64,000 nt of DNA from a virus (taxonomy: Duplodnaviria > Caudoviricetes): positions 1 through 64,000 of IMG/VR virus record IMGVR_UViG_3300030433_002124, one strand, 5' to 3'. Below are positions 14,852 through 45,900 of the stretch, piece by piece. Numbering within the stretch: position 1 is the first letter of the stretch; each line of letters opens with the position of its first letter. The notes beneath the pieces were generated by a model that was not told the origin of the DNA, searched no databases, and saw nothing but the letters and a program-made list of their open reading frames with translations. A program made the position numbers and the translations under genes.

Positions 14852-15808
14852 ATGGCATGTGAAAATTGTGAAAATGGATGTGCAGATCCAAATCTGTGCG
14901 CATGTGATTGTCAATCATGTGCAGAAGCAAACGGGTGTGATATACCTGTAGGTGATATAGGACCATCTGGTCCTGCTGGACCTGCGGGACAAAGTGGCCA
15001 AGACGGTCAACCCGGAGTAAATGGTGAAGATGGAGCAAATGGATGTTCTGTCTTAAATATATATGTAGCTTCTGGAGGAGAAACTGTAGATAGTGGATTT
15101 GCTGTTGAAGGAGATCTAGTTATTGAAACAGGACCAGCTCCAAGTCCATGTAATCAAACTTATATAGCAGGAAATATAACTAATATATTAGAAGAATCTA
15201 CAAGTAATACTTTACCTGTAGGTGTTATTGTAATGTGGTCAGGATCAGTATCAAGTATAAATGATTTACCTGGTTGGGCTATATGTGATGGAACTAGTGG
15301 TACTCCAGATCTTAGGGGTAGATTTATAGTAATGCCTGATCAATCTGCAGGTGCTCCTATGCTAACAGATGCAAATAATAATCCATTGTGGCCTAATGTA
15401 GGTGATACAGGTGGAGATATTCCTTTTACATGTTTAGCACCAAATAATATTCCAGCTCATGTTCATGATTTAGATGGTGTAGATATATCACTTTCACAGG
15501 GAGGTGCTCATTATCATCAACGTAGAGGTTATTATGTAGTAGATGGAACTGGAAGTCCTGCAGAAGACGTTAAATCTAGAGGTAGAATAGGTTCTGATCC
15601 TATGGAAAATGTAACAGCAGTTCCATTTGATGGTACGGGTGACTGTACTGGAGATAATGATCCTAATTGTGGAGCTCACATTCATGATGTAAGTTTAGAT
15701 GGAGATACAGGAGATGGACAACCAGAATTAGGAAGTCCTGATTTTGGAGATTGTTTTAATCATATTCCCCCTTATTATGCACTTTGTTTTATAATGAAAA
15801 TATCTTAA
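14852..15808 (+). CDS. tail fiber-like protein: Cys-rich N-terminus, collagen-like repeat, tail collar domain
   Basis: Ten G-X-Y triplets at 14951-15040; tail-collar motif LPVGVIVMWSG...GWAICDG...TPDLRGRFI; C-terminal HIPPYYALCFIMKI. Confidence 0.8.
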   Translation: MACENCENGCADPNLCACDCQSCAEANGCDIPVGDIGPSGPAGPAGQSGQDGQPGVNGEDGANGCSVLNIYVASGGETVDSGFAVEGDLVIETGPAPSPCNQTYIAGNITNILEESTSNTLPVGVIVMWSGSVSSINDLPGWAICDGTSGTPDLRGRFIVMPDQSAGAPMLTDANNNPLWPNVGDTGGDIPFTCLAPNNIPAHVHDLDGVDISLSQGGAHYHQRRGYYVVDGTGSPAEDVKSRGRIGSDPMENVTAVPFDGTGDCTGDNDPNCGAHIHDVSLDGDTGDGQPELGSPDFGDCFNHIPPYYALCFIMKIS

Positions 15809-16551: not shown

Positions 16552-19500
16552 ATGGCAGCAAATTATAAGTGGAAAAAATTAATATTAGGAAATAGTGTAA
16601 AGCAGGATAATCTTACTTATCCACCTACTATGTCATCTACTCCAGCAGCATTCAATGCTCCTGCAGGTATGGCATCTGTTGCTACAGATGATGCTTACAA
16701 TCCTGGTGTTTCTTATGCTGCAGGTGATTTATTATTCTACACAGATGGTGCTACTGTATATGATTCTACAGGTGCTATTATGAACGGTGGTACTCTTAAT
16801 GGACTAGGAGGTACAAAAGCAGGTGCTCAACCTGCTGTTATTTTAAAAAGTACTGAAACTAATTATTGGTGGATTTTATCTATATCTGCTGGTGGAAGAG
16901 TATATTCTAGTACAGTAAATATGGCTGGTAATTCAGGTCGTGGTACTGTAGATCAAAAAGCAGTTACAGTTAATATAGGGGCTACTGTAACAGACAGATT
17001 CAATGCTTATTACAGTACTAGTACTAGTCAGTATGGTTTTATATGTCATTTAACTGGTAGTAATAGATGGAAATCTGCTTTAATTACAGGTATATCTTCA
17101 CACAATCCTACTTTTAGTGCTGTTACTACTACTGCTATAGGTAATATCTATGCTAATAATGATGCTGCTAATCATGCTACTGTTAAGTTTAATGAAGATA
17201 ATACAAAAATGGCTACGGTTTATCAGACAGCTGTTGGTACTTCTTCATCTCCTGTTACATCTGCTATAGTAGAAGTTTATGACTTTAATCCTGCAACCGG
17301 TGTACCTTCTAATTTTAATTCGTTTTTAGTAAATATTAAAGACGCAGGGGCTGTTGCTCCTGGAGCCGGAAATGATGGTAGATTAAAGGGATATGATTTA
17401 GAATGGGATTTTGATACAGATACATTATATATTCCTACATATGATTCTACTCATGGATTAGGAATAGAGTGGTTTACTTTAAATGCTTCTAATGCTGTAA
17501 CCTCTCAAGGAGTTGTAGGTAAATCTAGATCTTCTATTGGTAATAATGCAGATAAAGCTATTTTTGGTATGTATAAAGATCCTTATGAAGATCGTATATA
17601 TATAGCTAAACCTGCTGTTATAGGTACTACAGGTGGATATAGTTCTGATTATAATGATACATATGCAACAGATAGAGTATCTGTAATTATAGATACAGCT
17701 ACACCATCTACTTCAGAATTTGTAGAAACTTTAACAACTACTGTTCCTGGTGACACTATTGGTAAAGGTATGCCTACTAGACCTATGGCCGGAGAAGAAG
17801 CAGGAGCTTCAGATTACTATAGATTAACTCCTTGCGATACTCAAAAAGAGTATGTTATGGATACTAATGGATCTATTTGGGTTTTAGATGGATCATTAGA
17901 TGCTACTAAAATTGCTGATGTAAGTTCGATATCCGATAGAGTAAATATAGCAGTTCAAAAAGAAACTAACTTTATTTACTTATTAGCAGGTACAGGAGCT
18001 ACTCCAAAGATATATAAAATAGATACAGTAACAGGTACTGTAGATGCAGGTACTACTGTAAGTGGTACAGGTATTACAGGATTTAATTCTATATGTAGTA
18101 AAGATGGAGATGCTGCTAAATTATATGCAGTAATTACAATAGCAGGTCCTCATTATAATTATGCAGAAATAACTATTGCCACAGGTTCTACAACCAAAAC
18201 AGCAGGTAATACAAGTCATATTGCAGTAGATACTGCTATAATTGGTGGTACTTTATATATGGCATCAGGAGATGATTTATATAAAAATACAGGTCCAGGT
18301 ACATGGGCTACGGTAGGAGCAAATACATTAAGTAAAGATTATGAAGGTTTATCTACTGATGATACTACATTATATGGTTATATAGAAGGTAAAAGATATA
18401 CTATTAATACTTCTACAGGTGCAGCTTCTGCAGGACAAAGTATTACAATAAACTCAAGTACAAGTACTTGGAACTATACAGTTCAAGGTGCAGGTATAGT
18501 TAATGTTGGAGTTATTAATACAAATGATACAAATCCTGGATCAGAATTAGGTAAAGTTATTACAGTTACTAATTATTCAGGTTGTTATACTGTAAGTACT
18601 ACAGGATCTGGAAGTGATGTTATTGGAACTATATTATCTTCTTCAGCGGATTGTGGTTCTTGTTCTAGTATTGAATCTGATAATTATTGTAAATTATTAA
18701 TTAGTTGTTGTGATTCTGGTTATAAAGGATTAGGATTTACAAGAGAAATTGTAGGAGTTAGTGATGATCCTACATGTTCAGTAGGTAGTTATTATGAAAT
18801 AACAGCTAATGCTCAAAGTAATGATCAGTTAAATAGATGTGTTGAAGTTCAGGATACAGACGATTCTTTATATATATTAAATAATAGTGATGGTTATAGG
18901 ATAGATATTACTACTGGTATCCTAAGTGAAGAATCGACAATAGGTGGAGAGGATATTGCTTTTAATAAACATGGTGTAGGATTTATATCTGGAGGATCTA
19001 CTTTATCTTATACAATACCAACTTTTAGTACATATAAAGATCTTCCTAAAGGAAATAGTACACCTATTTCTATTCCTCAAAATAGAGCAATAGGTTTTAA
19101 TTATTCAGATGAATTAATTACAGGAGGAGTAATTAGTGGTGTAACTCAAATTTCTAGAAACTCTATTAATAAGAAAGGAGTCTTAACTACTATTAATACA
19201 TTAACAAATGCTAATGTATTATTAACAGGAGATTTTGCTGTTGATAAAATTACAGGTAATTATTATTGTGTAGGAGATTCATCTCCTTCAGCTACACCTG
19301 AAACAAATGATTTATTTAAGTTAGATCCTTCTACATTAGCAGAAACTCATATTGCTAGTTTAACTACTACATTAAGTTTAAGCGCATGGCAAAACATTAA
19401 AGCTATAGAGATTGTTAAAGATGCTTGTTATGTAGTTGTTTGGGATACTAAAACTTATGGTATAACTCTTTATAGAATAAATAAAGATACAGGTGCATTA

Positions 19501-22500
19501 ATATCTTCTTTAGTATTAAAAAGTAATGATGGTAATGAAAAATTTATAAACCCTCCAACAGGTTTAGGTTATAATAATCCTTGTATTTATTGGGAAGCAG
19601 GTGCTTTTAAATTTGTAAATTATTCTAGTTGTTCTACATGTTTGGCTTCTGCAACAAGTAAAACTTGTTGTTATGAATTAGTTGATTGTGCTACAGGAGT
19701 TAGTACAATTACAAAAACAGATCTATCTAGTTATTTAGATCATATTATTGTAACAGATACTCCAGGTAAATGTTATACAGTATACACATATGATAATTCA
19801 ATTACATGTTCTGGTATAGATGTAAATGTTACTTCACAATATGCAGATTGTGTTAGTTGTACAGGAACTCAAACTAAATGTTATAGGTTATTAAAATGTG
19901 ACGATCCTACATCGGATCCTAAATATACTACAGAAGCTTTAACTCCTATGATTAGAAATAAGAAAGGAAAAAGCGTTCAATTAGAAGGAGAATCTTTTTG
20001 TCGTAGTGTAGATGATGCAGGAAATGCAGTTGAATTAATATCTGCTACAGCCCAAACAATTAAAAGTACAAAAGCATCTTGTGGTAAATGTAATTTTTAT
20101 TTAAAATTAAAGCAATGCGGGGCTCAGAATATTGTCAGGTATGTTGATTATGCAAGTAGTACAACTTTACATCCTTTTATAGGAACAGGATCTGTTAAGA
20201 TACAAGATTTAGGTAAAGGAGAAAATGGACATTGTTGGGAGATAGATTCTACTATTTATGGACCTACTTCAACATTAAGACCTAAAGCTCAATTAGTTTT
20301 ATCTGGACCTGATTGCACTATATGTAATGCACAAAACAATGAAGCGGTATTACCTGCTACTATAAAAATAGATAGTTGTTGTCCTGATTTAAATCCAGGT
20401 GTTAATTTTGGTAATACACAATGGTATAGTAATGATGGATCTCTTGTAAGCCTTGTTACATCGGGAGATTTAGTTTATTGGGGAAGTCTTATAGACCCAG
20501 ATGGAAATACTGTTACAGGATGTTTTAAAATAGAAATGTCTCCATCTCCCGTTAATCCAAGCTTTTTATCTACAGTACAAATTGTAGGCAGTAGTTCAGA
20601 TGCTAGTAAATGTGAAGCATGTGATCCTGGATTTACATCAGGGTGTGCTACTTTAAACTCAAATGCTACTATGATGTTAAGTTGTACTAGTGATGATCCT
20701 ATGTTTGTAACTACTAATACTTTTAATAATTATGATAATGATGCTCACACAGTATTTAATTTTGAAGAAATAGAATATTATGGTTGCTGGAAAAGATGTG
20801 TAACAGCAGATTATGTACATGGTTCTAATTGGTTTTGGGGATTTGGTTCTGGTCTAACTTGGCAAAATGCTTACGGATATCCAACTGTTCAGATGGGAGG
20901 TTCTTCAAATATGGGTGTTTCAGATGATAATTTAAATGATAATAATTTCTTTACTAAATTTGGTAGTACAGCACATAGTGCTCATGAAACTTTTACTGCA
21001 GGAACTAAAGAATATACTAGAGGTGCTCTAATGTTTTACTCTGATGGTAGATTTGTATATAATTCTAATCATCAAATAATGGCAGGTAGTGTTGACGGTA
21101 ACGGTACACCTTTATTAAGTGGTGGTGTAGATCCTAATGGAGTTTTTCAATATGCTTCTCAACAATGTATAACAGTTCCAAAACCAGATAGTGCAAGATT
21201 TACAGGTAGTACAACATATAAACAATATTATTTAATATATCAAAGACCCGGAACTCTCCGCGCTTTGTATGCTGTTCTTGATATGGATACAGCTGATGGA
21301 TTAGGTCAAATTATTTCTTATGATCAAGAATTACCTTATCCTCCTGGAGCATCAAATTTATCTACTGAAAGATTATCAGTATCATCAAGACCTGCTATTG
21401 CAGATAGTGAAGATGATGAATATTGGGTATTTGATGTAGTACCTTATGAACCACCGCAAGGATTTTTCCCTAGCCCTCCAGGCAAAATAAGAGCATGGAA
21501 AATATCTTCTACTGGTATAGATCTTCCGGTAATAAGTGCTATGGCTGGTAGTATTAATAATACACCTTGGTCTATAACTGAAGAAAATAGTAATGTGAGT
21601 GAATGGGCTCGTATTAAAGTTGCTCCTGATAATAGCCATATAGCTATAACAGGTAATAAAGACGGAATAGGATGGACTCAATTATATTCTTTTGACGAAA
21701 CTACTGGAGTTTGTGTTGGTGTTTGGCAAGATATACATGCTATAGGAATGACTAATTGTGGATTTCCAAATGCAGCTGATGTATATGGTGTTCCATTAAA
21801 TTTTTTACCTTTTACTCATGGAGTTGAATTTGGTGATAATGCTTTATTTATTTATAGATCTGGTGGATCATATGTAAATGAATGGCAGTGTAATGAATAT
21901 GGTAATGGAAATGGTACAATGACTTGGAATTATCTTAATGGTACTTGGGAAACTAGTACATATAATAATCCTGAGTGCTGTGGTTATCCTACGCTTCATA
22001 AAGCTATTTTATCATGGGTTGATTTAAGTGATTATTCAACAGGACAACAAACTCAAGATATAGATGAAATTTTACCTTCTGTTGGATTTAACTCTTTTAA
22101 AGTATCTAATCCATCTACAAGATTAGTATTTGAAACTGAAGAATTATTAATAACTCAACCACAATACTGTTCAAATGGATATTGTGAACAGCCTAGTGAT
22201 ATACGTCCTTTATTACAACATAGTATTGTAACCGATTTACATAGAGGTCCTGATGGGGCTTTATATGCAGGACTTGTATTAGGAGATGGTTCAAGTGGTA
22301 TTGCTAATACAAGAAATTGGAGAAATACATTTTTAGGAATATCTTCAACAGCAGAAGCAACTCCTAATTATGATTATACTTTTATGGGGGCTGCTCAAAC
22401 TAGTGACTGGACTCCTGATCCAGATGGAAATAGTTCTCAAAGAATTGCTCAATCTGGAGCTATACGAAGATTTCAGATTTCAAATGTTGATCTTGGAAAC

Positions 22501-25500
22501 GGAGATGGATATGTTTATCCATCAGGAATGGATGCTTTTAACAGAAGATCAGTAGTTATTAGTAATACCTCTAAAATAGATTTTGGATTTCCTCAATATA
22601 TAAAACGTAGATGTTTTGCAGCAGATGTAGATGCTGTTTCACCTACTATTCAAAATGCTAATTTTAATTGTGCATATGCTCAAGCCAGTTTTAATTGTTT
22701 TAATGCACCTGCTGAACCAGATATATTTAAAATAATTAATTGTACTCAAGGTAGTGAAGGATGTCAAAGTTCAAATACATGTCAAGATTTTACTCCAGGT
22801 ACAGCTATACAAGATGATGGAGAAAGCCAAAGATTTGGTATGACAGAATGGTTAAATCCTGATATATTAGATGCAATTCAAGCATTACCTTTAGGACCTC
22901 AAGCTGTATATATGACTTATAGTTTTCCACGAGAAGGTAGTATTATGTCTTCCGGTAGTTTTTTACCTACTTGTTCAGGTAGTGATTATTCACCTGGATC
23001 GGGTCCATATGCTAATGGTCAATGGACAGTACCTAAACATGAGAGTGGTCCTGGTACAGATAATGCTCAAGGAAATAATAGTTCTGGTAATGTATATGAT
23101 AAGACTTATACTATAACAGAAGCTCAATTTAGAGCAGAAATTGGAAAAGCTTTTGATCAGGTTAGTCAATTATTTGAAAGTGTATTTTCTATTAGTAATG
23201 GTTATCCAAATAATTTAACTTTACGATTTACAGATCTTGGAAAAGAAACAGGTACAGATAGTAACTTAACAAATACTCCTTTAGATAATTGGAGTACAAC
23301 TGCTCCTATAGGATTTGTTACATCATCAGGCGCTTCTGGTGTAGGAGATTTTAGAATATGGTTTGCAAGACACTCTCAGTGGTGTTTAAATAGTAATGGT
23401 AATCCAGGATCATATCAAACTAGTGGATGTACTGGATGTACTTATGCAGGATCTGCGGGAGGTGCTTTAGCTTGGGCTTGGGGACCTAGTTATGTTAATA
23501 ATGCTTCTGGTTATGATGGTACTACAGGTACATATAATGTAGATCCTACTACATCTTATAGAACAGCAAGTAGTCAGAATATAATATTTGATGTTAACGA
23601 GAATTGGAGAAAGACTACTGACGCACAAGTAAGCGGTACTTATGAAATATTAAGAGTTGGTATTCATGAAATATTACACTCTTTTGGATTCGGTCATGCT
23701 TATGAAAGTATGGCATCATTTCCTGGAGGTCAGTGTACAGGTACTACTAGTAGTGGAACAGTATTGAATAGTTATTTCCCTGCTATGGGCGGTTTTCTAT
23801 GTCCTAATAATGGTTATTATAATTCTGGTTGTGAAGCAAGTTCTACTTATGGAGGAGATCCTAATGCAATAATGGCTCCAACTGCAAATAGTGATAGCTT
23901 TACTACTATTTATGCTTTTGGTACAGATACTGCTTATGATCCTAATGCTTGTTATATGAGCGGTGGTTCTGCAGCAGCTATCCAAGATAGAACAATGGCT
24001 TGTCAGATTTATGGATATAGTTATTCAGATCAAGGAAATTTCTGTACACCTTTTGAGTGTCCTGTTTGTGTATCTCAGTTTTATTATACTGATCAAGAAT
24101 TATTTTGGGATTATGTTGGAAATATAGGTAATAGTTCTTTTAGTTGGAATCCAGGAACTGGATTATCATGTTGGTATGTAGAGCCAGTTGATTCATTACC
24201 TGAAGGAGATTCATTAACTACAATCAATCCTGTTGAAGGTTATGTAGATTGTGAAGCTTGTAATGTACAATTTTTAGCTCCTAGATGGAGATTAGTTTTA
24301 TGTGATGAATGTACAGAAAATGCTGGAAACGGATCACCTGGAGAAATTATTACAACTAGTGATATGAGTCAGTATTGTAATCCTGGTATTACTCCACAAG
24401 ATGATCCTATTAGTGATGTAATTGAACTTGTAGGATATACAGGATGTTATAAAGTTGATTGTACATATGATCCTTATGTAAATTATCCAGACTCAGCGGT
24501 TGCGGTAGTAGTATCAACAGTAGCAGAAGACTGTGATTCTTGTTGTAATACAACTGTTACACAATGTTATACAGTAACACAATGTGCTGATACAAATCCA
24601 ATAAGTTTTGTAATGATTGGAGATCAATATTGGGGAGGTATTACTGATTTAGGAGATTATGTATTTAAATTCGAACAATTACCTGCGGATGTTTTAGCAT
24701 TAGGGTTAACAAATGATGATTGTTTTACTGTTGCTTATTGCGGAGAGTGTAATGAAACAACTTGTAGTCCTTTAATAGGACCAGGACTTTTAACTGTAAT
24801 AGAATCATGGCCAGGTTGCTATAGTTGTTTATATGAAAACCCTAATCAAGAATGTTTTAAATTAGTTTGTTGTGATAGTAGTGGAGATCAATTAATTAAT
24901 GTTTTACCAAATGCAGATTTAAATAATGCATTTGTAACTGGAACAGTTGTAAAAATTAGTCAATATCCAGATAGTCAAGGTAATCCTAGATGTTGGCAAA
25001 TTGAAACTCAAGATGTATGCAACCCAGAAATAGCAGTAACAGTTACTGATACTTTTGTAGGATGTCAATTCTGTAGTGCAACAGTTTCTACTACAGGATG
25101 TACAGATCCAAGCGCATTAAATTGGTGTCCGCAATGTGTTACATGTTTATCACCACTAGGTGTTTTAAATGAATGTTGTATATATGAAGGATGTCCTTTA
25201 TCTTGTCAAGATCCAACTGCTACTAATTATAATCCTAATAATACATGTGATTGTAATGGAGTAGAAGGAGGAGATGATATTTCTTGTTGTGAATATCCTG
25301 CAATAGTTCTTCCACCAGAAGGTATTGAAGTAACTTTTGAAAAAGATTGTACTAATTGTTTGGATTGGGCTACTGTAGATAAAGTATTTTCGAATGCTGC
25401 AGAGTTATGTGGAACTTGTTTTCCTCCTAAAGGATTAACATTAAGAGAATATAATTGTGATCTAACAGATGCAACTGAAACTATTATACCTCCTGTAGAA

Positions 25501-27327
25501 GTTCCTGGAGGATGTACAAATCCAGAAGCTTTAAATTATGATGCATCTGCTGAGTGGGATGATGGATCTTGTTATTATACATCTGCATGTACAGATCCAA
25601 ATGCTTGTAACTTCGATCCTAATGCAGTTGAAAATAATCCAGATGAATGTATATATCCAGGACAATGTGGTTGTGAAGATTTTACAGACTCATGTGTAGG
25701 ATGTATGGATTTAACAGCATGTAACTATAATCCAAATGCTACTGTTCCTGATAATAGTTTATGTGAATATGCAAGTTGTTATGGTTGTACAGATCCAGAA
25801 GCAGGTAATTACTGTGCAGATTGTATAATGTGTCCAGATGCTGCTTGTTGTGCAAATAATGTACAAGCATGTCTTGACAATAGAAATATATATGTATTCT
25901 ATGATATGACATCTATACTTAACAGCGGTACTAACGAAGATAGATTTCAGGCAGTTATAGACCTTAGAAATTTGGTAGAAGCTTCTGTATCACAAATATT
26001 AACTAATAATGAAATAACTAATTTTAGTGGTAATATTTATCATTTACCTGTAGGAGCTTATTTTGGTGAAGGTAATGTACCTGCAGGTAATTGGAGAGTT
26101 GGTGGTACTGATCCATCAACTTGGATTCCTTATGAAACTCCTGCTAGTGGTGTAACAAATTTAAATAATAGTTCATTGTATTATCTAGGAGGTAATACAA
26201 CTAATTTAACAGAAGATTTTCCAGGATGGACTACTGTATTACCTACTGACAATAACGTAAATAGTGAAGGTACAGGTTCTGGTGAGAGGTGGTTACAATG
26301 GATGATGTATCCATTACATGGTAATTCCGCAGCTTTACATCCTAATTTAAGAATACCTTTTTCTAGTGTAACTGGAGTTTGGAAAGATACAGGACTACCA
26401 GTAAATAATCAAACTAATGAAGAACGTCTTCTTATTAAATCTATAAATTCTAATGGTTTAGATCAAAATGGTAATTATGTAAATAATTTACCTGGTACAC
26501 AAGTTAACCCTTTTAATGATCCACCAGGAGAAGAAGGGTTTAGTGATATATATCATCAATTTGAAGGAGGAGATACTAATGCTATTTGTATTGCATTTAT
26601 AGATGAATCAAATCCGGTATATCACACACTTGCTCAACCAGGGGGAGGAGCTTGTACTACAGATATGTTAGTTAGTGATAATTTATGTGGTCCTGGTATA
26701 ATAAATAATACTCAAACAGCCTGTGGTAATGCATCGTGGTATGGTACAGCTCCTGGTGTAGATGTTTTTGATATTTATATTACCGCACCTTTTTGTTTCG
26801 ATCATACTAGATTTACTGAGGCTTGGAATTATGGGTATGATACTAATGGAGCAGCACCTATGACTGTTAAGTATGCTAATGGACCAATAGGTAGTGGTTA
26901 TGGAAATGGTAACTTTAATGGTATTATAATACCTACTAAATTGTCGGGAACTCCTGGAACTGATACAAATCAAATGTTTATCTCAACTTTATATGGTTCT
27001 ATAGGACAAGGAAATCCATCAGAATTAGGTCATATTAGTTGTGCAGATTTTATAGATCTTCCTTGGCCTGATGCAAGAAGTATGGCTCCTTATACAGATA
27101 CATATTGGCCTAATCCTTTTTCTTGGACAAATAATTCTATGGTAACTACTGCTTTACATGATGGTTCAACTATTCCTCCTGGTAGATATAGTTCTCAAGG
27201 ATTTAGTTTAGCTAACTATGGAATGACTTTTAAAATACCAGGAGCAGGTCAAGAACTACTTCAAATAAGTCAAGATGATTTAGCAGATGCAATACTACAA
27301 GGGTTATTGTGTAATAATGGAGGATAA
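16552..27327 (+). CDS. giant (3591 aa) Cys-rich mosaic tail/fiber protein with beta-propellers, metzincin domain and GCTDP repeats
   Basis: About 11 Cys modules ending in CxxC; HEILHSFGFGH (23665-23697) with Met-turn AIMAP; two L[L/M]FY[T/S]DG propeller-like domains; GCT[D/N]PxAxNY repeats at 25096-25812. Confidence 0.75.
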   Translation: MAANYKWKKLILGNSVKQDNLTYPPTMSSTPAAFNAPAGMASVATDDAYNPGVSYAAGDLLFYTDGATVYDSTGAIMNGGTLNGLGGTKAGAQPAVILKSTETNYWWILSISAGGRVYSSTVNMAGNSGRGTVDQKAVTVNIGATVTDRFNAYYSTSTSQYGFICHLTGSNRWKSALITGISSHNPTFSAVTTTAIGNIYANNDAANHATVKFNEDNTKMATVYQTAVGTSSSPVTSAIVEVYDFNPATGVPSNFNSFLVNIKDAGAVAPGAGNDGRLKGYDLEWDFDTDTLYIPTYDSTHGLGIEWFTLNASNAVTSQGVVGKSRSSIGNNADKAIFGMYKDPYEDRIYIAKPAVIGTTGGYSSDYNDTYATDRVSVIIDTATPSTSEFVETLTTTVPGDTIGKGMPTRPMAGEEAGASDYYRLTPCDTQKEYVMDTNGSIWVLDGSLDATKIADVSSISDRVNIAVQKETNFIYLLAGTGATPKIYKIDTVTGTVDAGTTVSGTGITGFNSICSKDGDAAKLYAVITIAGPHYNYAEITIATGSTTKTAGNTSHIAVDTAIIGGTLYMASGDDLYKNTGPGTWATVGANTLSKDYEGLSTDDTTLYGYIEGKRYTINTSTGAASAGQSITINSSTSTWNYTVQGAGIVNVGVINTNDTNPGSELGKVITVTNYSGCYTVSTTGSGSDVIGTILSSSADCGSCSSIESDNYCKLLISCCDSGYKGLGFTREIVGVSDDPTCSVGSYYEITANAQSNDQLNRCVEVQDTDDSLYILNNSDGYRIDITTGILSEESTIGGEDIAFNKHGVGFISGGSTLSYTIPTFSTYKDLPKGNSTPISIPQNRAIGFNYSDELITGGVISGVTQISRNSINKKGVLTTINTLTNANVLLTGDFAVDKITGNYYCVGDSSPSATPETNDLFKLDPSTLAETHIASLTTTLSLSAWQNIKAIEIVKDACYVVVWDTKTYGITLYRINKDTGALISSLVLKSNDGNEKFINPPTGLGYNNPCIYWEAGAFKFVNYSSCSTCLASATSKTCCYELVDCATGVSTITKTDLSSYLDHIIVTDTPGKCYTVYTYDNSITCSGIDVNVTSQYADCVSCTGTQTKCYRLLKCDDPTSDPKYTTEALTPMIRNKKGKSVQLEGESFCRSVDDAGNAVELISATAQTIKSTKASCGKCNFYLKLKQCGAQNIVRYVDYASSTTLHPFIGTGSVKIQDLGKGENGHCWEIDSTIYGPTSTLRPKAQLVLSGPDCTICNAQNNEAVLPATIKIDSCCPDLNPGVNFGNTQWYSNDGSLVSLVTSGDLVYWGSLIDPDGNTVTGCFKIEMSPSPVNPSFLSTVQIVGSSSDASKCEACDPGFTSGCATLNSNATMMLSCTSDDPMFVTTNTFNNYDNDAHTVFNFEEIEYYGCWKRCVTADYVHGSNWFWGFGSGLTWQNAYGYPTVQMGGSSNMGVSDDNLNDNNFFTKFGSTAHSAHETFTAGTKEYTRGALMFYSDGRFVYNSNHQIMAGSVDGNGTPLLSGGVDPNGVFQYASQQCITVPKPDSARFTGSTTYKQYYLIYQRPGTLRALYAVLDMDTADGLGQIISYDQELPYPPGASNLSTERLSVSSRPAIADSEDDEYWVFDVVPYEPPQGFFPSPPGKIRAWKISSTGIDLPVISAMAGSINNTPWSITEENSNVSEWARIKVAPDNSHIAITGNKDGIGWTQLYSFDETTGVCVGVWQDIHAIGMTNCGFPNAADVYGVPLNFLPFTHGVEFGDNALFIYRSGGSYVNEWQCNEYGNGNGTMTWNYLNGTWETSTYNNPECCGYPTLHKAILSWVDLSDYSTGQQTQDIDEILPSVGFNSFKVSNPSTRLVFETEELLITQPQYCSNGYCEQPSDIRPLLQHSIVTDLHRGPDGALYAGLVLGDGSSGIANTRNWRNTFLGISSTAEATPNYDYTFMGAAQTSDWTPDPDGNSSQRIAQSGAIRRFQISNVDLGNGDGYVYPSGMDAFNRRSVVISNTSKIDFGFPQYIKRRCFAADVDAVSPTIQNANFNCAYAQASFNCFNAPAEPDIFKIINCTQGSEGCQSSNTCQDFTPGTAIQDDGESQRFGMTEWLNPDILDAIQALPLGPQAVYMTYSFPREGSIMSSGSFLPTCSGSDYSPGSGPYANGQWTVPKHESGPGTDNAQGNNSSGNVYDKTYTITEAQFRAEIGKAFDQVSQLFESVFSISNGYPNNLTLRFTDLGKETGTDSNLTNTPLDNWSTTAPIGFVTSSGASGVGDFRIWFARHSQWCLNSNGNPGSYQTSGCTGCTYAGSAGGALAWAWGPSYVNNASGYDGTTGTYNVDPTTSYRTASSQNIIFDVNENWRKTTDAQVSGTYEILRVGIHEILHSFGFGHAYESMASFPGGQCTGTTSSGTVLNSYFPAMGGFLCPNNGYYNSGCEASSTYGGDPNAIMAPTANSDSFTTIYAFGTDTAYDPNACYMSGGSAAAIQDRTMACQIYGYSYSDQGNFCTPFECPVCVSQFYYTDQELFWDYVGNIGNSSFSWNPGTGLSCWYVEPVDSLPEGDSLTTINPVEGYVDCEACNVQFLAPRWRLVLCDECTENAGNGSPGEIITTSDMSQYCNPGITPQDDPISDVIELVGYTGCYKVDCTYDPYVNYPDSAVAVVVSTVAEDCDSCCNTTVTQCYTVTQCADTNPISFVMIGDQYWGGITDLGDYVFKFEQLPADVLALGLTNDDCFTVAYCGECNETTCSPLIGPGLLTVIESWPGCYSCLYENPNQECFKLVCCDSSGDQLINVLPNADLNNAFVTGTVVKISQYPDSQGNPRCWQIETQDVCNPEIAVTVTDTFVGCQFCSATVSTTGCTDPSALNWCPQCVTCLSPLGVLNECCIYEGCPLSCQDPTATNYNPNNTCDCNGVEGGDDISCCEYPAIVLPPEGIEVTFEKDCTNCLDWATVDKVFSNAAELCGTCFPPKGLTLREYNCDLTDATETIIPPVEVPGGCTNPEALNYDASAEWDDGSCYYTSACTDPNACNFDPNAVENNPDECIYPGQCGCEDFTDSCVGCMDLTACNYNPNATVPDNSLCEYASCYGCTDPEAGNYCADCIMCPDAACCANNVQACLDNRNIYVFYDMTSILNSGTNEDRFQAVIDLRNLVEASVSQILTNNEITNFSGNIYHLPVGAYFGEGNVPAGNWRVGGTDPSTWIPYETPASGVTNLNNSSLYYLGGNTTNLTEDFPGWTTVLPTDNNVNSEGTGSGERWLQWMMYPLHGNSAALHPNLRIPFSSVTGVWKDTGLPVNNQTNEERLLIKSINSNGLDQNGNYVNNLPGTQVNPFNDPPGEEGFSDIYHQFEGGDTNAICIAFIDESNPVYHTLAQPGGGACTTDMLVSDNLCGPGIINNTQTACGNASWYGTAPGVDVFDIYITAPFCFDHTRFTEAWNYGYDTNGAAPMTVKYANGPIGSGYGNGNFNGIIIPTKLSGTPGTDTNQMFISTLYGSIGQGNPSELGHISCADFIDLPWPDARSMAPYTDTYWPNPFSWTNNSMVTTALHDGSTIPPGRYSSQGFSLANYGMTFKIPGAGQELLQISQDDLADAILQGLLCNNGG

Positions 27328-27397: not shown

Positions 27398-27766
27398 ATG
27401 GCGACTTTATCACAACAATTAGTTTTGACAAGTACTACAACAAGTACTGATGCGTTGAGTATATCAACAACAGATAGTCTTAGTGTAACAGAGCCATCTA
27501 TAAACGTAGCGCGTAAATCAATAGCAACGGGAGGATCGACAGCTGTATTAGCAGCTGTTGCAGGAAAAATAACTTACTTATATATAAAAGTAATAAGTGG
27601 TGTTACTGCTACTGATACAGTCGAGATTGATCTTGGAGGAGCTGGAATTATGAGAATGGGAATAGGAGAATGTTGTTTTTTACCTTTGAAAGATGGTAAA
27701 GCAGTGGCAGCTCAGGCTTTTGGAAATGCGTGTGTTATAGAATATGGTCAGTGGGCTAAGAGTTAA
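27398..27766 (+). CDS. small structural protein, paralog 1
   Basis: 122 aa, Thr/Ala-rich and beta-rich; 24 of the first 31 aa are identical to the next gene. Confidence 0.65.
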   Translation: MATLSQQLVLTSTTTSTDALSISTTDSLSVTEPSINVARKSIATGGSTAVLAAVAGKITYLYIKVISGVTATDTVEIDLGGAGIMRMGIGECCFLPLKDGKAVAAQAFGNACVIEYGQWAKS

Positions 27767-27796: not shown

Positions 27797-28165
27797 ATGG
27801 CAACTTTATCAACAGCCTTAACAATAACAAGTACTACTACTTCAACTGATGCTTTAAGTATTAGTTTAACAGATACTCTAACTGTAACTAATCCTGTTGT
27901 GGATTCTGCTAGAGTAGAAGTTACAACAGCAGCTCATACAGAGTTGGTAGCTACTAGTGTAAGTACCATTACATATGCATATATAAAGAACTTACATACT
28001 TCTAGTATATTAGATGTATGTACAGGAGCAGGATCTCCAGTTATATTTGGAGGATTAGGACCGGGAGAATTTATGATGTACCCGATAGATGCAAGTAAAG
28101 GACTGAAACTAAAAGCTAACACTACTAATATAAAAGTAGAGTATGGTTTATGGACAAAAGGTTAA
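27797..28165 (+). CDS. small structural protein, paralog 2
   Basis: 122 aa; shares the N-terminal TSTTTSTDALSIS and C-terminal EYGxWxK with the previous gene. Confidence 0.65.
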   Translation: MATLSTALTITSTTTSTDALSISLTDTLTVTNPVVDSARVEVTTAAHTELVATSVSTITYAYIKNLHTSSILDVCTGAGSPVIFGGLGPGEFMMYPIDASKGLKLKANTTNIKVEYGLWTKG

Positions 28166-30411: not shown

Positions 30412-31551
30412 ATGATATTACAATATACAATGCAGGGACAGCTGGTTGGTCGGTACCAAGATGTTTCTGAAGCTTCAACAAAAACCGATATAGATAATGG
30501 GAGTATACATAAAGTACTCCGAGGAGAAAGAGCTACAGCGGGTGGCTTTATGTGGAAGCAGGAAAATGAAGTAAATGAAAATGTTAGTTCTAATGAGCTT
30601 AAAGAAGCGATAAATGCTCAAGGACTAACTGAAGATGAAGTTAAGTCAGTTAAAATCTGGCAAACTATGAGCGGTGAGACACGTTACTCTATAGTAACTA
30701 GAGATGGTGGTAAAGCTGCTCAGAAATTTAAAGATGAGTTCTTTGAAAAACTGAAAACAATAGCTCCGGCTGAAATAGATCGTAAATATACTATGGTCGA
30801 TAATAATCCTATAGTATATGAAATATCTTTACCAGATATACATTATGGTAAAGAAACTAATGAAGATCTTAATACAGGTGAAGTGCATTTTATGAATTCT
30901 GTAAAAGAATTACATGCACGAGCAAAAGGATTAAATATACAGCGATTCTTATTACCAATAGGAAACGATGGTATGAATTCAGAAGGTATGAGAAAGACTA
31001 CAACTAAGGGAACACCTCAAAGTGATTCTGTAGATTGGCAAAAGTCTTTTATTGGGTATACTAAATTAATTATAGATGCTGCTAATTATTTAGCAGAGTA
31101 TGCTCCGGTAGATATTGTTATAGTACAAGGTAACCATGACTTTGAACGTATGTTTTATGCGGGAGAAGTTTTATCAGCTTGGTTTAAAAATGATAAAAAT
31201 GTAACAGTTGATAATGGTTTAGATAGTAGAAAATACTATGAGTACGGAGTAAATATGATTATGTTTACTCACGGTGATAAAGAAAAGGCTGCTGATATGC
31301 CATTAATAATGGCTACTGAACAGCCTATGATGTTCTCGAGAACTAAATTTAGAGAAGTTCATTGTGGACATTTACATAAAGAAATGGTAAACGAATATAG
31401 AGGAATTAAAGTAAGATTTATTCCTTCTATATGTGCAAATGATTCTTGGCACAAACTAATGGGTTATGAATCTTTGCGATGCGCACAAGCGTATATATGG
31501 AATAAGGAAAAGGGATGTGAAGGTTACTTACAAGTTAATATAGATAAATAA
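30412..31551 (+). CDS. NUMOD1-like DNA-binding domain fused to calcineurin-like metallophosphoesterase
   Basis: N-terminal ILQYTMQG...SEAS...SIHKVLRGERATAGGFMWK (NUMOD1/IENR1-like); metallophosphoesterase motifs DIHYG, GND, GNHD, HGD and GHLH. Confidence 0.85.
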   Translation: MILQYTMQGQLVGRYQDVSEASTKTDIDNGSIHKVLRGERATAGGFMWKQENEVNENVSSNELKEAINAQGLTEDEVKSVKIWQTMSGETRYSIVTRDGGKAAQKFKDEFFEKLKTIAPAEIDRKYTMVDNNPIVYEISLPDIHYGKETNEDLNTGEVHFMNSVKELHARAKGLNIQRFLLPIGNDGMNSEGMRKTTTKGTPQSDSVDWQKSFIGYTKLIIDAANYLAEYAPVDIVIVQGNHDFERMFYAGEVLSAWFKNDKNVTVDNGLDSRKYYEYGVNMIMFTHGDKEKAADMPLIMATEQPMMFSRTKFREVHCGHLHKEMVNEYRGIKVRFIPSICANDSWHKLMGYESLRCAQAYIWNKEKGCEGYLQVNIDK

Positions 31552-42980: not shown

Positions 42981-45900
42981 ATGGCAGTAAATAGATTTAA
43001 TACACCGGCAGAACAGAATTTGATGCAAACATATGTACCACTTCCTTTTCAGGAAATGGCTGCAGCTGCTCAAATGATTCAACAGAGACATGATACAGCA
43101 GAAGCTTTAGCAGATTCTTTAGATGATGATTTATTAGGTATAAAAGCTTATCGTGAATTAGATAAAAGATATTTAACTGATTATAGACAAAATTTAGATA
43201 ATGAGTTATCTGGTTTAATAAAGAAACATAATGGTAGATATGCAGATATGTTACCAGATCTTAAACTGATACAGAAAAGAGTAAATAGAGATCTTACTGC
43301 TGGGAATTTAGCTGCTATAAAAATGAGTGGAGAACAGTTAGCTTTATATGATCAGGGTGTATTAGATACAAAAAAAGATGAAAAATATGATCCATATTTA
43401 GACTCAATGTTAGGAGCTGGATATGATAGAGCTGTATGGATGAGTGAGGGTATGAAAAATATTGGTACAGAATTACAACCTAATTATATTATAGATGAGG
43501 ATTATTATCAAAATAATGTAACAGGACAACCTTTATCATCATATAAGTATACAGGTGTATGGCAAGCTTCTGATATGCTTTCTCAATTAGATAAAGTATA
43601 TGGTAAAGTTAAAAAAGACAGTCAAGAAGTTACATATAATGTAACTGATCCTGATGGTACTGTAAGAACAATTACAGAAAAAATAGATCAAATAACACCG
43701 GCTAAAATAGCTGAAGCTGCTTTAAATAATATAAGTGCATTGAGTCCAAATGCTAGACAAGAGTTGGCATTATGGTCAGCTTCACAAACAGATGATGCTG
43801 TGTTAGCATATGCAGATGCATTCTTACAAACATTACTTTCAGATGAAATGATGGCAGCAGAAACCCAAGATCAAATTGATGATGTAAATGAAAGATATTC
43901 TAGTATGTGGGCTGAAATGACAGATGAAGATGGAAATCCTACAGCTCAGGCTATTAAATATGCAGAACTTTGGAATATAAATGAAGAGGGTAGAAAATAT
44001 ATCACGGGAGATACAACATTAAAAGATGTTGCTGATACTAAAAATAAATACAAAAGTAGCACAGGAGGTTCTACACACACATATAGAATTATTGATACTG
44101 GTACAGGACCTGAACTTCAAATTACTCCGGTAGTAAATGAGTTTGGAGAAGATATAATAGAAAATAGTAATGACGCATTATTGACAACATGGAATAAAAG
44201 TGTTAATCAAAACTATACTAATTATGTGGATGCGGTAGAAGAATATAATAAATGGAGAGAACAAACTCCTGGAGATGTAGATCATTTAGCTGATTTAGAA
44301 AGAATAGTAAATTCAGCTAGGTATACTTATGAAGCATCAGCTTTCCTTAAGCAACAAATAACACAGCAAGCTGCTATAGATGCTAATTATAAATATGTAG
44401 GTCATGGAGCAGGAATGAATGAGAAAAATGAAGCAGGTTATTATTATGAAGATATTACTTTTGGTCCAAATAATGAGCTTTTAAGTACTTTTATTGATGT
44501 AGGTTATGGTGATACTGGAGATAATATTCCTATGAGATATAATATTGATGTTATGTTTGACGATCAAGGTAAACCTATTAGTCCAGACGATGTAAACGCT
44601 ATATGGGCTCATATAAGAAATAGAACTTTAACAGATGAGGATGGTTTTATTACAGGATTTACTCCTGGATTACATGAGAATCCTTTAATGGTTGTAGATG
44701 AAGAAACCGGTGTGGGAGTAATTGATCCAAGAACAGCTGATTATACAGGACGTCATAGTATTGTATATGATGCTTCTTATGTAGGTAATACACCATTAGA
44801 TAAAGCTAAAGTAAAACTGTATGAAAAAAGAAAGAAGGAATTATTTGGAGGTAGAACTAGAGAGATAACAGAATTAGCAGGAACAGGTAATAAGAGAGTA
44901 GATGAACAAATTAGAACAGCTATTACTGAAAATTGGTTAAATGAGGACTTTATGTTTATGGGACAAATGACTAATCAAACATTCTCTATGCTTGAAGATC
45001 CTGGAACAGATGCTGAAGCTTTAAAAGATATTATAGCAGATATCAATGGAGATGGTAATGAAAACCAAGAAGATGTTATGGAATTCTTAGAACAAGTTAA
45101 AAAAGGAGATGTTAGAATATTATGGGAATCTGTACCTAATTCAACAATAAATGATGGTGCAGGTGGTTATAGAGGTGTTGTAAAAGTTCCTACTAAAACG
45201 GGTGCTCAAACATTATACTTTACAGCACCACAAGCTTATTTAAATGAAATAATGACATATCATGTAGATATGGATGGTAATTATGTAAAAATGAGTCCAA
45301 ATGAATCTCAAATGAAATGGATGAATTACAATGCTCAAATAGATTTAGATAGAGCAATGAGATTACCTGGTAATATTGTTCCAACTGCTACTTTAGATGA
45401 GAATAATAATCCAATAGGATGGTATTATTTTGGTATAAATCCTAATGATGGTACACCATTAAGATCTGATGAATATATATTTGTTCCTAATAAAAATGTA
45501 ATAACTGCAGTAGATGTTGTAGAAGGACAAATTGTAGAAACAAGAGCCACAGGAGAGCCTAGCGGTGCTATAGATGTAGATGATAATACTAGAGATTTAG
45601 CTAGAATATTAATGTTAAATGATCCTAATCAAGCGGCTACTAAAAAATTCTGGTATAATCAGTTAGACGTAACACCTGCTACTGAACCTATTAAAAGAGA
45701 ATTTGACAAAACGCCTATTATTAATAATAATGATAATACTATTATTGATAATAATATTAATATCGATAATGAAGATAAAGATAATATTATTGTAGTTGAT
45801 CCGAATGATAAAAAAGATAAAAACGATAATGACTATATATTACCAGAAGAGATTGATCCAATTCCTGAAGGATTTGATGAAAACGGTAATAGAATACCAG

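What the first reader, a model, noticed from the sequence alone, without database searches (positions are those of the whole stretch)
17812..25074. Cys-repeat scaffold with whole domains nested inside the repeats
Seen: about 11 modules of the form [YF]xLxxC ... C[YWF]xV ... CxxC, starting near 17812, 18685, 19666, 19876, 20095, 20362, 20671, 22723, 24283, 24562 and 24850. Seven are compact (about 65-100 aa). Four appear split by large inserts: propeller-like regions at about 17845-18510, 18860-19560 and 20820-22590, and a metzincin at about 22760-24060. After the inserts the remaining Cys motifs resume (for example YYRLTPC...[insert]...GCYTV...DCGSC). Inference: a beaded metal-stabilised stalk that accepts interchangeable effector domains as loop insertions, a plug-in architecture for a receptor-binding or envelope-penetrating fiber that I do not recognise from described phage fibers.
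Basis: partly seen in the sequence, partly recalled or inferred. Interest (0 to 1): 0.75.

Follow-up and report, generated by a model that had tools for sequence, protein, structure and literature searches.

The report
Phage fibre repeats with nested domains
A 3,591-residue appendage protein of a marine crAss-like phage is a string of eleven small cysteine-stapled beta modules of an unannotated but widespread family, and four of them carry whole domains (two beta-propellers, a large propeller-related domain, a metzincin-type protease) spliced into their loops, so the repeat works as a stalk with sockets.

Summary
All eleven module starts lie in frame in one ORF (16552-27327, 3591 aa) of a complete 88.9-kb marine crAss-like phage, in the tail-fibre gene slot. 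The module is a real family. A profile of the compact copies finds 528 protein clusters in metagenomes, all unnamed, with no match in Pfam, PHROGs, NCBIfam, PDB sequences or GenBank phages.

Covariation over 528 modules gives a five-stranded antiparallel sheet (order 2-1-4-3-5) with strand 1 in the centre. Nesting is strongly supported for modules 1 and 8, where the insert follows strand 1. It is moderately supported for modules 2 and 7, where the insert follows strand 4.

Inserts 1 and 2 are beta-propellers (pLDDT 80; Z 13-16). Insert 3 contains a paralogue of the N-terminal domain. Insert 4 has an invariant HExxHxxGxxH motif and a conserved Met.

- Paired loss of cysteines favours two disulfides (C1-C3, C2-C4) over a metal site.
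- The domain set is fixed in close orthologues. Distant homologues and other fibre families do fill or empty the same two loops with unrelated domains, so "plug-in" holds only on an evolutionary scale.

The fibre role rests on synteny alone. This scan had not noted the module on other DNA.

The parts
16552..27327 (+). Single ORF of 3591 aa (P0001), the giant appendage protein
   Evidence: Eight full-length collinear homologues of 3528-4147 aa come from marine metagenomes.
16552..17796 (+). N-terminal domain (aa 1-415), propeller-like. The first ~25 residues are highly conserved.
   Evidence: Invariant residues. Nearest ESM-Atlas clusters include PD40-type propellers, which is a lead only. Paralogous to part of insert 3.
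17809..17835 (+). M1 strand 1 (aa 420-428), ending in invariant C428
17839..18510 (+). Insert 1: beta-propeller (aa 430-653) in the strand1/strand2 loop of M1
   Evidence: AF2 model pLDDT 80. VIA Z 16.2, rmsd 2.5, 178 residues aligned to 3mbr; model range up to 25-249 in six-bladed propellers.
18514..18669 (+). M1 strands 2-5 and the CxxC helix (aa 655-706); invariant C678, C701, C704
18685..18855 (+). M2 strands 1-4 (aa 712-768), a divergent module
   Evidence: Order of secondary-structure elements; invariant C713, C719, C763. Profile support is weak.
18856..19581 (+). Insert 2: six-bladed-type beta-propeller (aa 769-1010) in the strand4/strand5 loop of M2
   Evidence: VIA Z 13-14 to nidogen, LRP4 and LDLR YWTD propellers and to Kelch. 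Foldseek E 1e-15 to LRP6 and LRP2.
19582..19644 (+). M2 strand 5 and CxxC (aa 1011-1031)
19660..20628 (+). Compact modules M3 (aa 1037-1105), M4 (1107-1182), M5 (1181-1260) and M6 (1269-1359)
20665..20805 (+). M7 strands 1-4 (aa 1372-1418)
   Evidence: External HMM positions 15-48, E 0.023. The equivalent in P0073 and P0055 scores E 1e-6.
20806..22626 (+). Insert 3 (aa 1419-2025) in the strand4/strand5 loop of M7. It contains a paralogue of the N-terminal domain.
   Evidence: HHalign aa 39-294 against aa 1471-1767: probability 96%, E 2e-9. The structure model failed.
22627..22701 (+). M7 strand 5 with a widened C...C closure (aa 2026-2050)
   Evidence: 12th-ranked distinct site as a C-part. 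The closure is canonical in P0055 and P0073.
22717..22743 (+). M8 strand 1 (aa 2056-2064), ending in invariant C2064
22744..24069 (+). Insert 4: metzincin-like domain (aa 2065-2506) in the strand1/strand2 loop of M8. The HExxHxxGxxH motif lies at 23665-23697.
   Evidence: Pfam Peptidase_M10 E 2.6e-4, 21.3 bits, below the cut-off of 24. H2372, E2373, H2376, G2379 and H2382 are invariant. A Met about 59 residues downstream is conserved. Weak matches to MMPs in the PDB.
24070..24267 (+). M8 strands 2-5 and CxxC (aa 2507-2572)
   Evidence: External HMM positions 20-77, E 9e-7
24280..25080 (+). Compact modules M9 (aa 2577-2666), M10 (2669-2761) and M11 (2765-2843)
25096..25851 (+).
   Evidence: Read from the sequence. 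Shared with P0010.
25852..27324 (+). C-terminal domain (aa 3101-3591), unknown fold, candidate distal tip
   Evidence: Conserved in the giant family only. No Pfam match.

Best explanation
P0001 is a giant virion appendage protein, most likely a tail fibre, of a marine crAss-like phage. Its shaft is a chain of eleven copies of a 65-95-aa beta module.

The module. It has five antiparallel strands in sheet order 2-1-4-3-5, followed by a short helix that begins with CxxC. It is stapled by two disulfides: C1 (end of strand 1) to C3, and C2 (start of strand 4) to C4. A third pair is optional.

The sockets. Two connections of the module tolerate insertions: the strand1/strand2 hairpin and the strand4/strand5 crossover. 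In this protein four modules are occupied:
- M1 holds a beta-propeller in the 1/2 loop.
- M2 holds a six-bladed-type propeller in the 4/5 loop.
- M7 holds a ~600-aa domain in the 4/5 loop, which includes a copy of the N-terminal propeller-like domain.
- M8 holds a metzincin-like Zn protease in the 1/2 loop.

The chain leaves and re-enters the module through linkers of only 3-4 residues. The shaft therefore stays continuous while the working domains stick out sideways.

Shown: the module family, its topology, the split halves, the propeller folds, the conserved protease motif, and the variable occupancy of the same loops in relatives.

Inferred: that the propellers bind host or particle glycans, that the protease cuts a surface protein layer, that the C-terminal domain is the distal tip, and that the protein sits on the tail.
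For: Context:
- The genome is crAss-like: capsid Pfam 1e-144, terminase, portal, ring proteins 1-4 and muzzle.
- The record is complete at 88,886 bp.
- The gene follows a collagen-like tail-fibre gene and precedes ring 2, ring 1 and muzzle.
- Module-bearing proteins P0011 and P0114 occupy the same slot in other crAss-like contigs.

Module family:
- A profile of the compact copies finds 528 clusters at E<=1e-3 and 282 at E<=1e-10.
- There are 548 complete modules in 147 proteins.

Topology, from direct-coupling analysis of 528 unique modules:
- Strand 1 pairs with strand 2 (12-24, 13-23, 15-21).
- Strand 1 pairs with strand 4 (10-52, 12-50, 14-48, 16-46).
- Strand 3 pairs with strand 4 and with strand 5.
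- Strand 1 is therefore central. A C-terminal half without it would have a gap between strands 2 and 4.
- The AF2 model (pLDDT 80) shows the same five strands plus helix in compact M3, in M1 around propeller 1 and in M2 around propeller 2.

Split halves: with numbers in the observation check.

Disulfides:
- C2 and C4 presence counts (both, C2 only, C4 only, neither) are 514, 5, 5, 4, p 4.8e-6, while C1 and C3 are about 100% kept.
- The same pattern is seen in M4 of L003 and L009 and in M5 of L008.
- PhiCrAss001 tails are disulfide-stabilised (PMC10172136).

Variable sockets.
Against: - Model coordinates could not be inspected. Contact between the early strand and the later half is deduced from topology, secondary structure, profile complementarity and invariant Cys, and was not measured.
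- The second model (aa 1372-2571) failed at pLDDT 35, so M7 and M8 have no structural support.
- M2 and M7 are weak by profile.
- In M1, a strand at aa 644-650 lies where a local strand 1 would sit. Structural alignments assign it to the propeller, but it could substitute.
- Fibre location and all biochemical roles rest on synteny and domain type alone. There are no virion proteomics, and the oligomeric state is unknown.
- There is no similarity to the PhiCrAss001 fibres.
Confidence: 0.65

Rival explanations
1. Serial arrangement instead of nesting. The propellers, the large domain and the protease lie between modules, as YWTD propellers lie between EGF modules in LDL-receptor relatives. The short orphan pieces (an early strand, a late strand plus CxxC) are degenerate remnants or linkers that do not rejoin.
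For: The best fold matches are serial propeller-EGF arrays (LRP6, LRP2, LDLR). M2 and M7 halves score weakly when joined. No coordinates were available to show the contact. A local strand at aa 644-650 could stand in for strand 1 of M1.
Against: Strand 1 is the central strand of the sheet. The M1 and M8 C-halves lack it and lack its Cys, while C428 and C2064 are invariant and are the only conserved partners for C3. The claimed windows are the best or near-best completions out of 3577. Joined halves give full-length matches in 8 homologues for M1 and 6 of 7 for M8. Distant homologues show both halves with complementary coordinates.
Confidence: 0.13
2. One reading: each module is held by a tetrahedral metal site (Zn bound by C1, C2 and the CxxC pair), not by disulfides.
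For: There are four near-invariant Cys including a CxxC at a helix start, which is a common Zn-knuckle element. All four Cys show mutual couplings of z 5-7. Phage assembly occurs in a reducing cytoplasm.
Against: C2 and C4 are lost as a pair while C1 and C3 remain about 100% conserved. A crippled Zn site would not keep two ligands under such constraint. The strongest coupling is specifically C2-C4. A further optional pair, C0-C57 (both, C0 only, C57 only, neither: 184, 106, 27, 211; p 1e-36), behaves as a disulfide. The related crassvirus tail uses structural disulfides.
Confidence: 0.25
3. The protein is not a tail fibre. It would be a head fibre or capsid decoration, or a protein released at lysis that acts on particles or biofilm, with the stalk serving only as a spacer.
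For: PhiCrAss001 also carries head fibres encoded in the structural block. There is no sequence similarity to any characterised tail fibre. No docking motif could be recognised.
Against: The gene sits directly after a collagen-like protein that hits many PHROG tail-fibre families, and before ring 2, ring 1 and muzzle. In a long-tailed phage contig a six-module protein follows the tape measure and a tail protein.
Confidence: 0.2

Closest known systems
LDL-receptor family YWTD beta-propeller / EGF arrays (LRP6, LRP2/megalin, LDLR, nidogen)
   Same: Propellers alternate with small disulfide-rich modules in a long extracellular chain. These are the best fold matches to the model: Foldseek E 1e-15; VIA Z 13-14 for propeller 2; the LDLR YWTD-EGF pair 1ijq aligns over model residues 366-680.
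   Different: There the EGF modules precede and follow the propeller as complete units, whereas here one module is split around the propeller. There is no sequence relationship and no Ldl_recept_b or EGF Pfam match. Those proteins are eukaryotic receptors, not virion proteins.
Carbohydrate-binding modules inserted into loops of siphophage distal tail proteins ('evolved Dit', lactococcal and Lactobacillus phages). Recalled from my own knowledge, not checked here.
   Same: A host-interaction domain is inserted into a loop of a structural tail protein, present in some phages and absent in relatives.
   Different: That is a single insertion into a baseplate hub protein. It is not a repeated free-standing stalk module with two defined sockets, and it involves no Cys staples and no propeller or protease guests.
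Tail and head fibres of PhiCrAss001 (Bayfield et al. 2023, PMC10172136)
   Same: Same virus order and the same structural gene block. The tail there is stabilised by disulfides, and fibres attach through short N-terminal peptides.
   Different: No detectable sequence similarity. None of the 50,697 GenBank phage records gave a tblastn hit to the two module-bearing queries tried.
Matrixin/metzincin Zn endopeptidases (MEROPS M10)
   Same: HExxHxxGxxH with all three His, the Glu and the Gly invariant in 9 homologues, and a conserved downstream Met. Weak profile hits to Pfam M10 and to MMP-3, -10, -11 and -14.
   Different: The score is below the Pfam cut-off. The domain is about 440 aa, far larger than a 160-aa catalytic domain. 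It is embedded in a loop of another domain. Its fold is not confirmed.
CCP/sushi and EGF 'beads on a string' modules (my own knowledge)
   Same: Small beta modules of 40-70 aa, stapled 1-3 and 2-4 by disulfides and concatenated into rods.
   Different: Different Cys spacing (C3 and C4 form a CxxC here). No profile match. The topology derived here (2-1-4-3-5 plus a helix) was not compared with them structurally.

Membership tests
Crassvirales (crAss-like phage) structural block | Crassvirus major capsid protein, ring proteins 1-4 and muzzle protein | tested here: met
   Pfam Crass_capsid 1e-144 and Ring_3_4 1e-26. Ring_2 5e-33, Ring_1 5e-58, crAss_MUZ 4e-143.
Phage tail fibre | Encoded among tail genes next to other fibre genes | tested here: met
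   Lies between a collagen-like PHROG tail-fibre protein and ring 2, ring 1 and muzzle. Same slot for P0011 and P0114. Follows the tape measure in L012.
Phage tail fibre | Physically present on the virion tail, usually as a trimer | not testable with these tools
   No cultured phage, proteome or map exists for this lineage.
Phage tail fibre | Sequence or profile similarity to a described fibre family | tested here: not met
   PHROGs gave 0 families. tblastn against 50,697 phage records gave no match.
Metzincin / Peptidase M10 | HExxHxxGxxH zinc-binding motif with catalytic Glu | tested here: met
   The motif is at aa 2372-2382, with H, E, H, G and H invariant in 9 homologues.
Metzincin / Peptidase M10 | Met-turn downstream of the third His | tested here: inconclusive
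   A Met at aa 2441 in the AIMAP context is invariant in 7 homologues. Its structural role could not be checked because the model failed.
Metzincin / Peptidase M10 | Profile score above the curated Pfam threshold | tested here: not met
   21.3 bits against a cut-off of 24, matching only profile positions 83-128.
Beta-propeller (YWTD/Kelch/NHL-type) | Propeller fold of 4-stranded blades | tested here: met
   Model pLDDT 80. VIA Z 16.2 for propeller 1 and Z 13-14 for propeller 2.
Beta-propeller (YWTD/Kelch/NHL-type) | Family-specific sequence repeats (Ldl_recept_b, Kelch, NHL) | tested here: not met
   Only a sub-threshold Kelch_6 hit, E 0.029, 14.8 bits against a cut-off of 25.3.
   C2 and C4 are lost together while C1 and C3 are kept. 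The strongest coupling is pairwise C2-C4.
   Needs purified protein.
New module family (this report) | Profile match over strands 1-5 and CxxC, with C1, C2, C3 and C4 | tested here: met
   Six compact copies score E 9e-17 to 8e-4 against a profile built from other proteins; M6 matches only in part (E 0.009). Joined M1 and M8 score 25-50 bits, except M8 of L008, where joining adds nothing.

The most novel reading that the evidence does not exclude
The module is a dedicated insertion-tolerant scaffold. It has two loops that act as sockets, and uncultured phages of more than one morphotype (crAss-like podophages and tape-measure-bearing long-tailed phages) use them to gain, lose and exchange host-interaction domains. 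Guests include propellers, a protease and unknown 90-, 150- and 415-aa domains. The fibre shaft itself does not have to be rebuilt. This would be a natural domain-display system and a previously unrecognised route of host-range evolution.
Probability: 0.35. Interest if true: 0.75.

Novelty: new variant of a known kind. Interest (0 to 1): 0.6.

Why it matters
Fibres decide which hosts a phage can infect, and for marine crAss-like phages nothing is known about them. This work defines a widespread repeat family that no domain library names (528 clusters at 50% identity). It gives the family's topology and cystine pattern from covariation. It also shows that whole folded domains, including a probable protease, are grafted into two specific loops, with occupancy that differs between relatives.

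If confirmed, three things follow:
- A rule for annotating many giant 'hypothetical' phage proteins.
- A concrete example of how fibres acquire new binding or enzymatic heads.
- A compact natural scaffold for displaying domains.

None of this changes the general picture of phage fibres, so the interest is moderate rather than high.

Tried and rejected
- The second AlphaFold job (aa 1372-2571, 7 sequences) gave pLDDT 35 and is unusable. In hindsight 1200 residues with so shallow an alignment was too ambitious, and no jobs remained.
- Model coordinates are not exposed, so Cys-Cys distances and strand contacts could not be measured.
- PSSM scans of single strands were too dependent on the training copies to be useful.
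- A self-BLAST of the protein printed nothing. Domain-by-domain BLAST gave only the N-terminus/insert 3 hint, which HHalign then confirmed.
- HHalign found no relation between propeller 1 and propeller 2, nor between either and the N- or C-terminal domain.
- The ESM Atlas gave only unnamed viral clusters for the modules.
- PDB sequence search with the module profile gave only chance-level hits (importin, E 0.14).
- Word-indexed searches added nothing. The metzincin region against shorter proteins and the module profile against longer proteins returned only fragments of the same family.
- Three literature searches found no description of the module or of this protein.
- No N-terminal docking motif is shared with neighbouring ORFs or with other module proteins.
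- P0055 (1799 aa) probably represents a broken or partial giant gene on a short contig. It was used only for motif comparison.

Full report
WHAT IS THERE

The finding lies inside one open reading frame, 16552-27327 on the + strand, encoding 3591 residues with 136 cysteines. The window belongs to an 88,886-bp virus record rated complete. It carries crassvirus hallmarks: terminase and portal, Crass_capsid at 1e-144 and ring 3/4, and ring 2, ring 1 and muzzle.

The giant gene follows a collagen-like protein that matches many PHROG tail-fibre families, and it precedes ring 2, ring 1 and muzzle. Eight collinear homologues of 3528-4147 aa (38-73% identity) come from marine metagenomes on contigs up to 94 kb, several of about 90 kb.

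THE MODULE IS REAL AND WIDESPREAD

- The seven compact copies align to a consensus of the form CYxLxxC ... TxxDL..G..V ... C[YWF]xV ... TV......CxxC.
- A profile of 43 compact copies was searched against 1.84 billion representative proteins. It found 528 proteins at E<=1e-3 and 282 at E<=1e-10. Most are 300-1900 aa with 3-12 tandem copies.
- None has a Pfam, PHROG or NCBIfam family or a source name other than 'hypothetical protein'.
- The PDB holds no sequence relative.
- GenBank phages give no tblastn hit.
- Two such proteins lie in the same gene slot of other crAss-like contigs.
- A third follows a tape-measure gene and a tail-protein gene, so the module is not confined to crassviruses.

TOPOLOGY FROM COVARIATION

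I built an HMM from 402 modules of these other proteins and ran mean-field direct-coupling analysis on 528 unique complete modules.

- The strongest couplings are C2-C4 (z 11.9), an optional pair C0-C57 (z 10.9), and C1-C3 (z 7.0).
- Ladders of couplings pair strand 1 with strand 2, strand 1 with strand 4, strand 3 with strand 4, and strand 3 with strand 5, all antiparallel.
- The sheet order is therefore 2-1-4-3-5, with strand 1 in the middle.
- The AlphaFold model of aa 405-1110 (8 sequences, mean pLDDT 80) shows this series of five strands plus a helix starting at CxxC in compact M3.

ARE DOMAINS NESTED?

M1
- The external HMM hits aa 420-441 (profile 8-30) and aa 659-706 (profile 26-77, E 5e-9). 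These are complementary pieces about 220 residues apart.
- Of all 3577 14-residue windows tried as the missing strand, the claimed one is the best.
- Joined halves give full-length matches of 32-50 bits in all eight homologues, 8-15 bits above the C-part alone and above controls with a shuffled N-part.
- C428, C678, C701 and C704 are invariant, and no other conserved Cys is available to pair with C701.
- In the model, strand 1 ends four residues before the first propeller strand, and strand 2 starts four residues after the last.

M8
- The later half (aa 2508-2572, E 9e-7) lacks strand 1. The native sequence just upstream does not supply it: 21 bits with it against 24 without.
- The [YF]xLxxC strand at aa 2058-2064 is the sixth-best distinct completion, behind only the first strands of other modules.
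- Joining adds 5-14 bits in six of seven homologues.

M2 and M7
- These are divergent, and the profile alone does not establish them.
- M2 is supported by the order of secondary-structure elements around propeller 2.
- M7 is supported by P0073 and P0055. There the first four strands (E about 1e-6) and a canonical strand 5 plus CxxC (E 4e-5 to 8e-4) are 541-549 residues apart, and the first strand of M8 follows immediately.

Caveat: I could not read model coordinates, and the model covering M7 and M8 failed. Nesting is therefore well argued but not seen directly.

WHAT THE GUESTS ARE

- Propeller 1 (aa 430-653) aligns best to the Xanthomonas glutaminyl cyclase propeller (Z 16.2, rmsd 2.5 Å, 178 residues).
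- Propeller 2 (aa 769-1010) aligns to nidogen, LRP4 and LDLR YWTD propellers and to Kelch propellers (Z 13-14).
- Over the whole model the best Foldseek matches are LRP6 and megalin propeller-EGF arrays.
- Insert 3 contains a paralogue of the N-terminal domain (HHalign probability 96%, E 2e-9, 238 columns). Atlas look-alikes of the N-terminal domain include PD40-type propellers, which is a lead only.
- Insert 4 has an invariant HExxHxxGxxH and a conserved downstream Met, with sub-threshold matrixin hits.

METAL OR DISULFIDE?

- Among 528 modules, the counts for both, C2 only, C4 only and neither are 514, 5, 5 and 4 (p 4.8e-6), while C1 and C3 are essentially always kept.
- The same joint loss occurs in M4 of two homologues and in M5 of a third.
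- The optional C0-C57 pair is also all-or-none (p 1e-36).
- PhiCrAss001 tails contain structural disulfides.
- I read this as two or three cystines per module, at about 70%, rather than a Zn site.

INTERCHANGEABLE?

- Within the orthologous group down to about 38% identity the domain set is fixed.
- P0009 carries a roughly 415-aa domain, unrelated to anything in P0001, in the strand4/5 loop of its M9. Its N-part scores E 1.4e-6 and its C-part 2e-5. M9 is compact here.
- P0055, P0066 and P0073 carry a roughly 150-aa domain in the strand1/2 loop of M10.
- Six clusters of 700-900-aa crAss-type proteins carry a roughly 90-aa domain at the strand4/5 site.
- All ten split modules detected in 147 proteins use one of these two sites.
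- The sockets are therefore real hot spots, filled differently over evolutionary time.

VERDICT

This is a new repeat family and an unusual architecture within the known category of modular phage fibres.

Noticed in passing
window 25096-25851 (aa 2849-3100): A second, different Cys-rich repeat of the form GCTDPxAxNY...DDGSCxY occurs about six times. It is the only part shared with an NCBI protein of 3359 aa (P0010) that carries VCBS and bacterial TSP3 Pfam domains.
   Followed up: partly
window 16552-17796 and 20962-21852: The N-terminal domain (aa 39-294) and part of insert 3 (aa 1471-1767) are paralogues (HHalign 96%, E 2e-9). The giant gene therefore grew partly by internal duplication.
   Followed up: yes
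window 27398-27766 and 27797-28165: Two tandem 122-aa paralogous ORFs (40% identity, E 1e-14) lie directly after the giant gene. Pairs of about 103-123 aa follow it in all four homologous loci fetched by protein look-up. They may be fibre accessory or assembly proteins.
   Followed up: partly
window 30412-31551: A 379-aa ORF has weak NUMOD-like (homing-endonuclease DNA-binding) and metallophosphatase hits. It sits between the fibre genes and the ring 2 gene.
   Followed up: no
window 14852-15808: The collagen-like tail-fibre protein starts with a dense Cys cluster (9 Cys in the first 29 residues) before the Gly-X-Y repeats.
   Followed up: no
window 42981-47738: A 1585-aa protein downstream of the muzzle has a sub-threshold VanY-type D-Ala-D-Ala carboxypeptidase hit near its C-terminus (E 3.5e-5). 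It is a candidate ejected cell-wall enzyme.
   Followed up: no
L012:4246-6645 (P0013) and L010:10480-12561: A six-module protein follows a tape measure and a tail protein in a long-tailed phage contig. In a crAss-like contig the gene after module protein P0011 carries a Pfam Ice_binding domain.
   Followed up: partly
L004:9847-11100: The ~415-aa domain nested in M9 of homologue P0009 has no Pfam match and no relative among the 150 proteins examined.
   Followed up: partly
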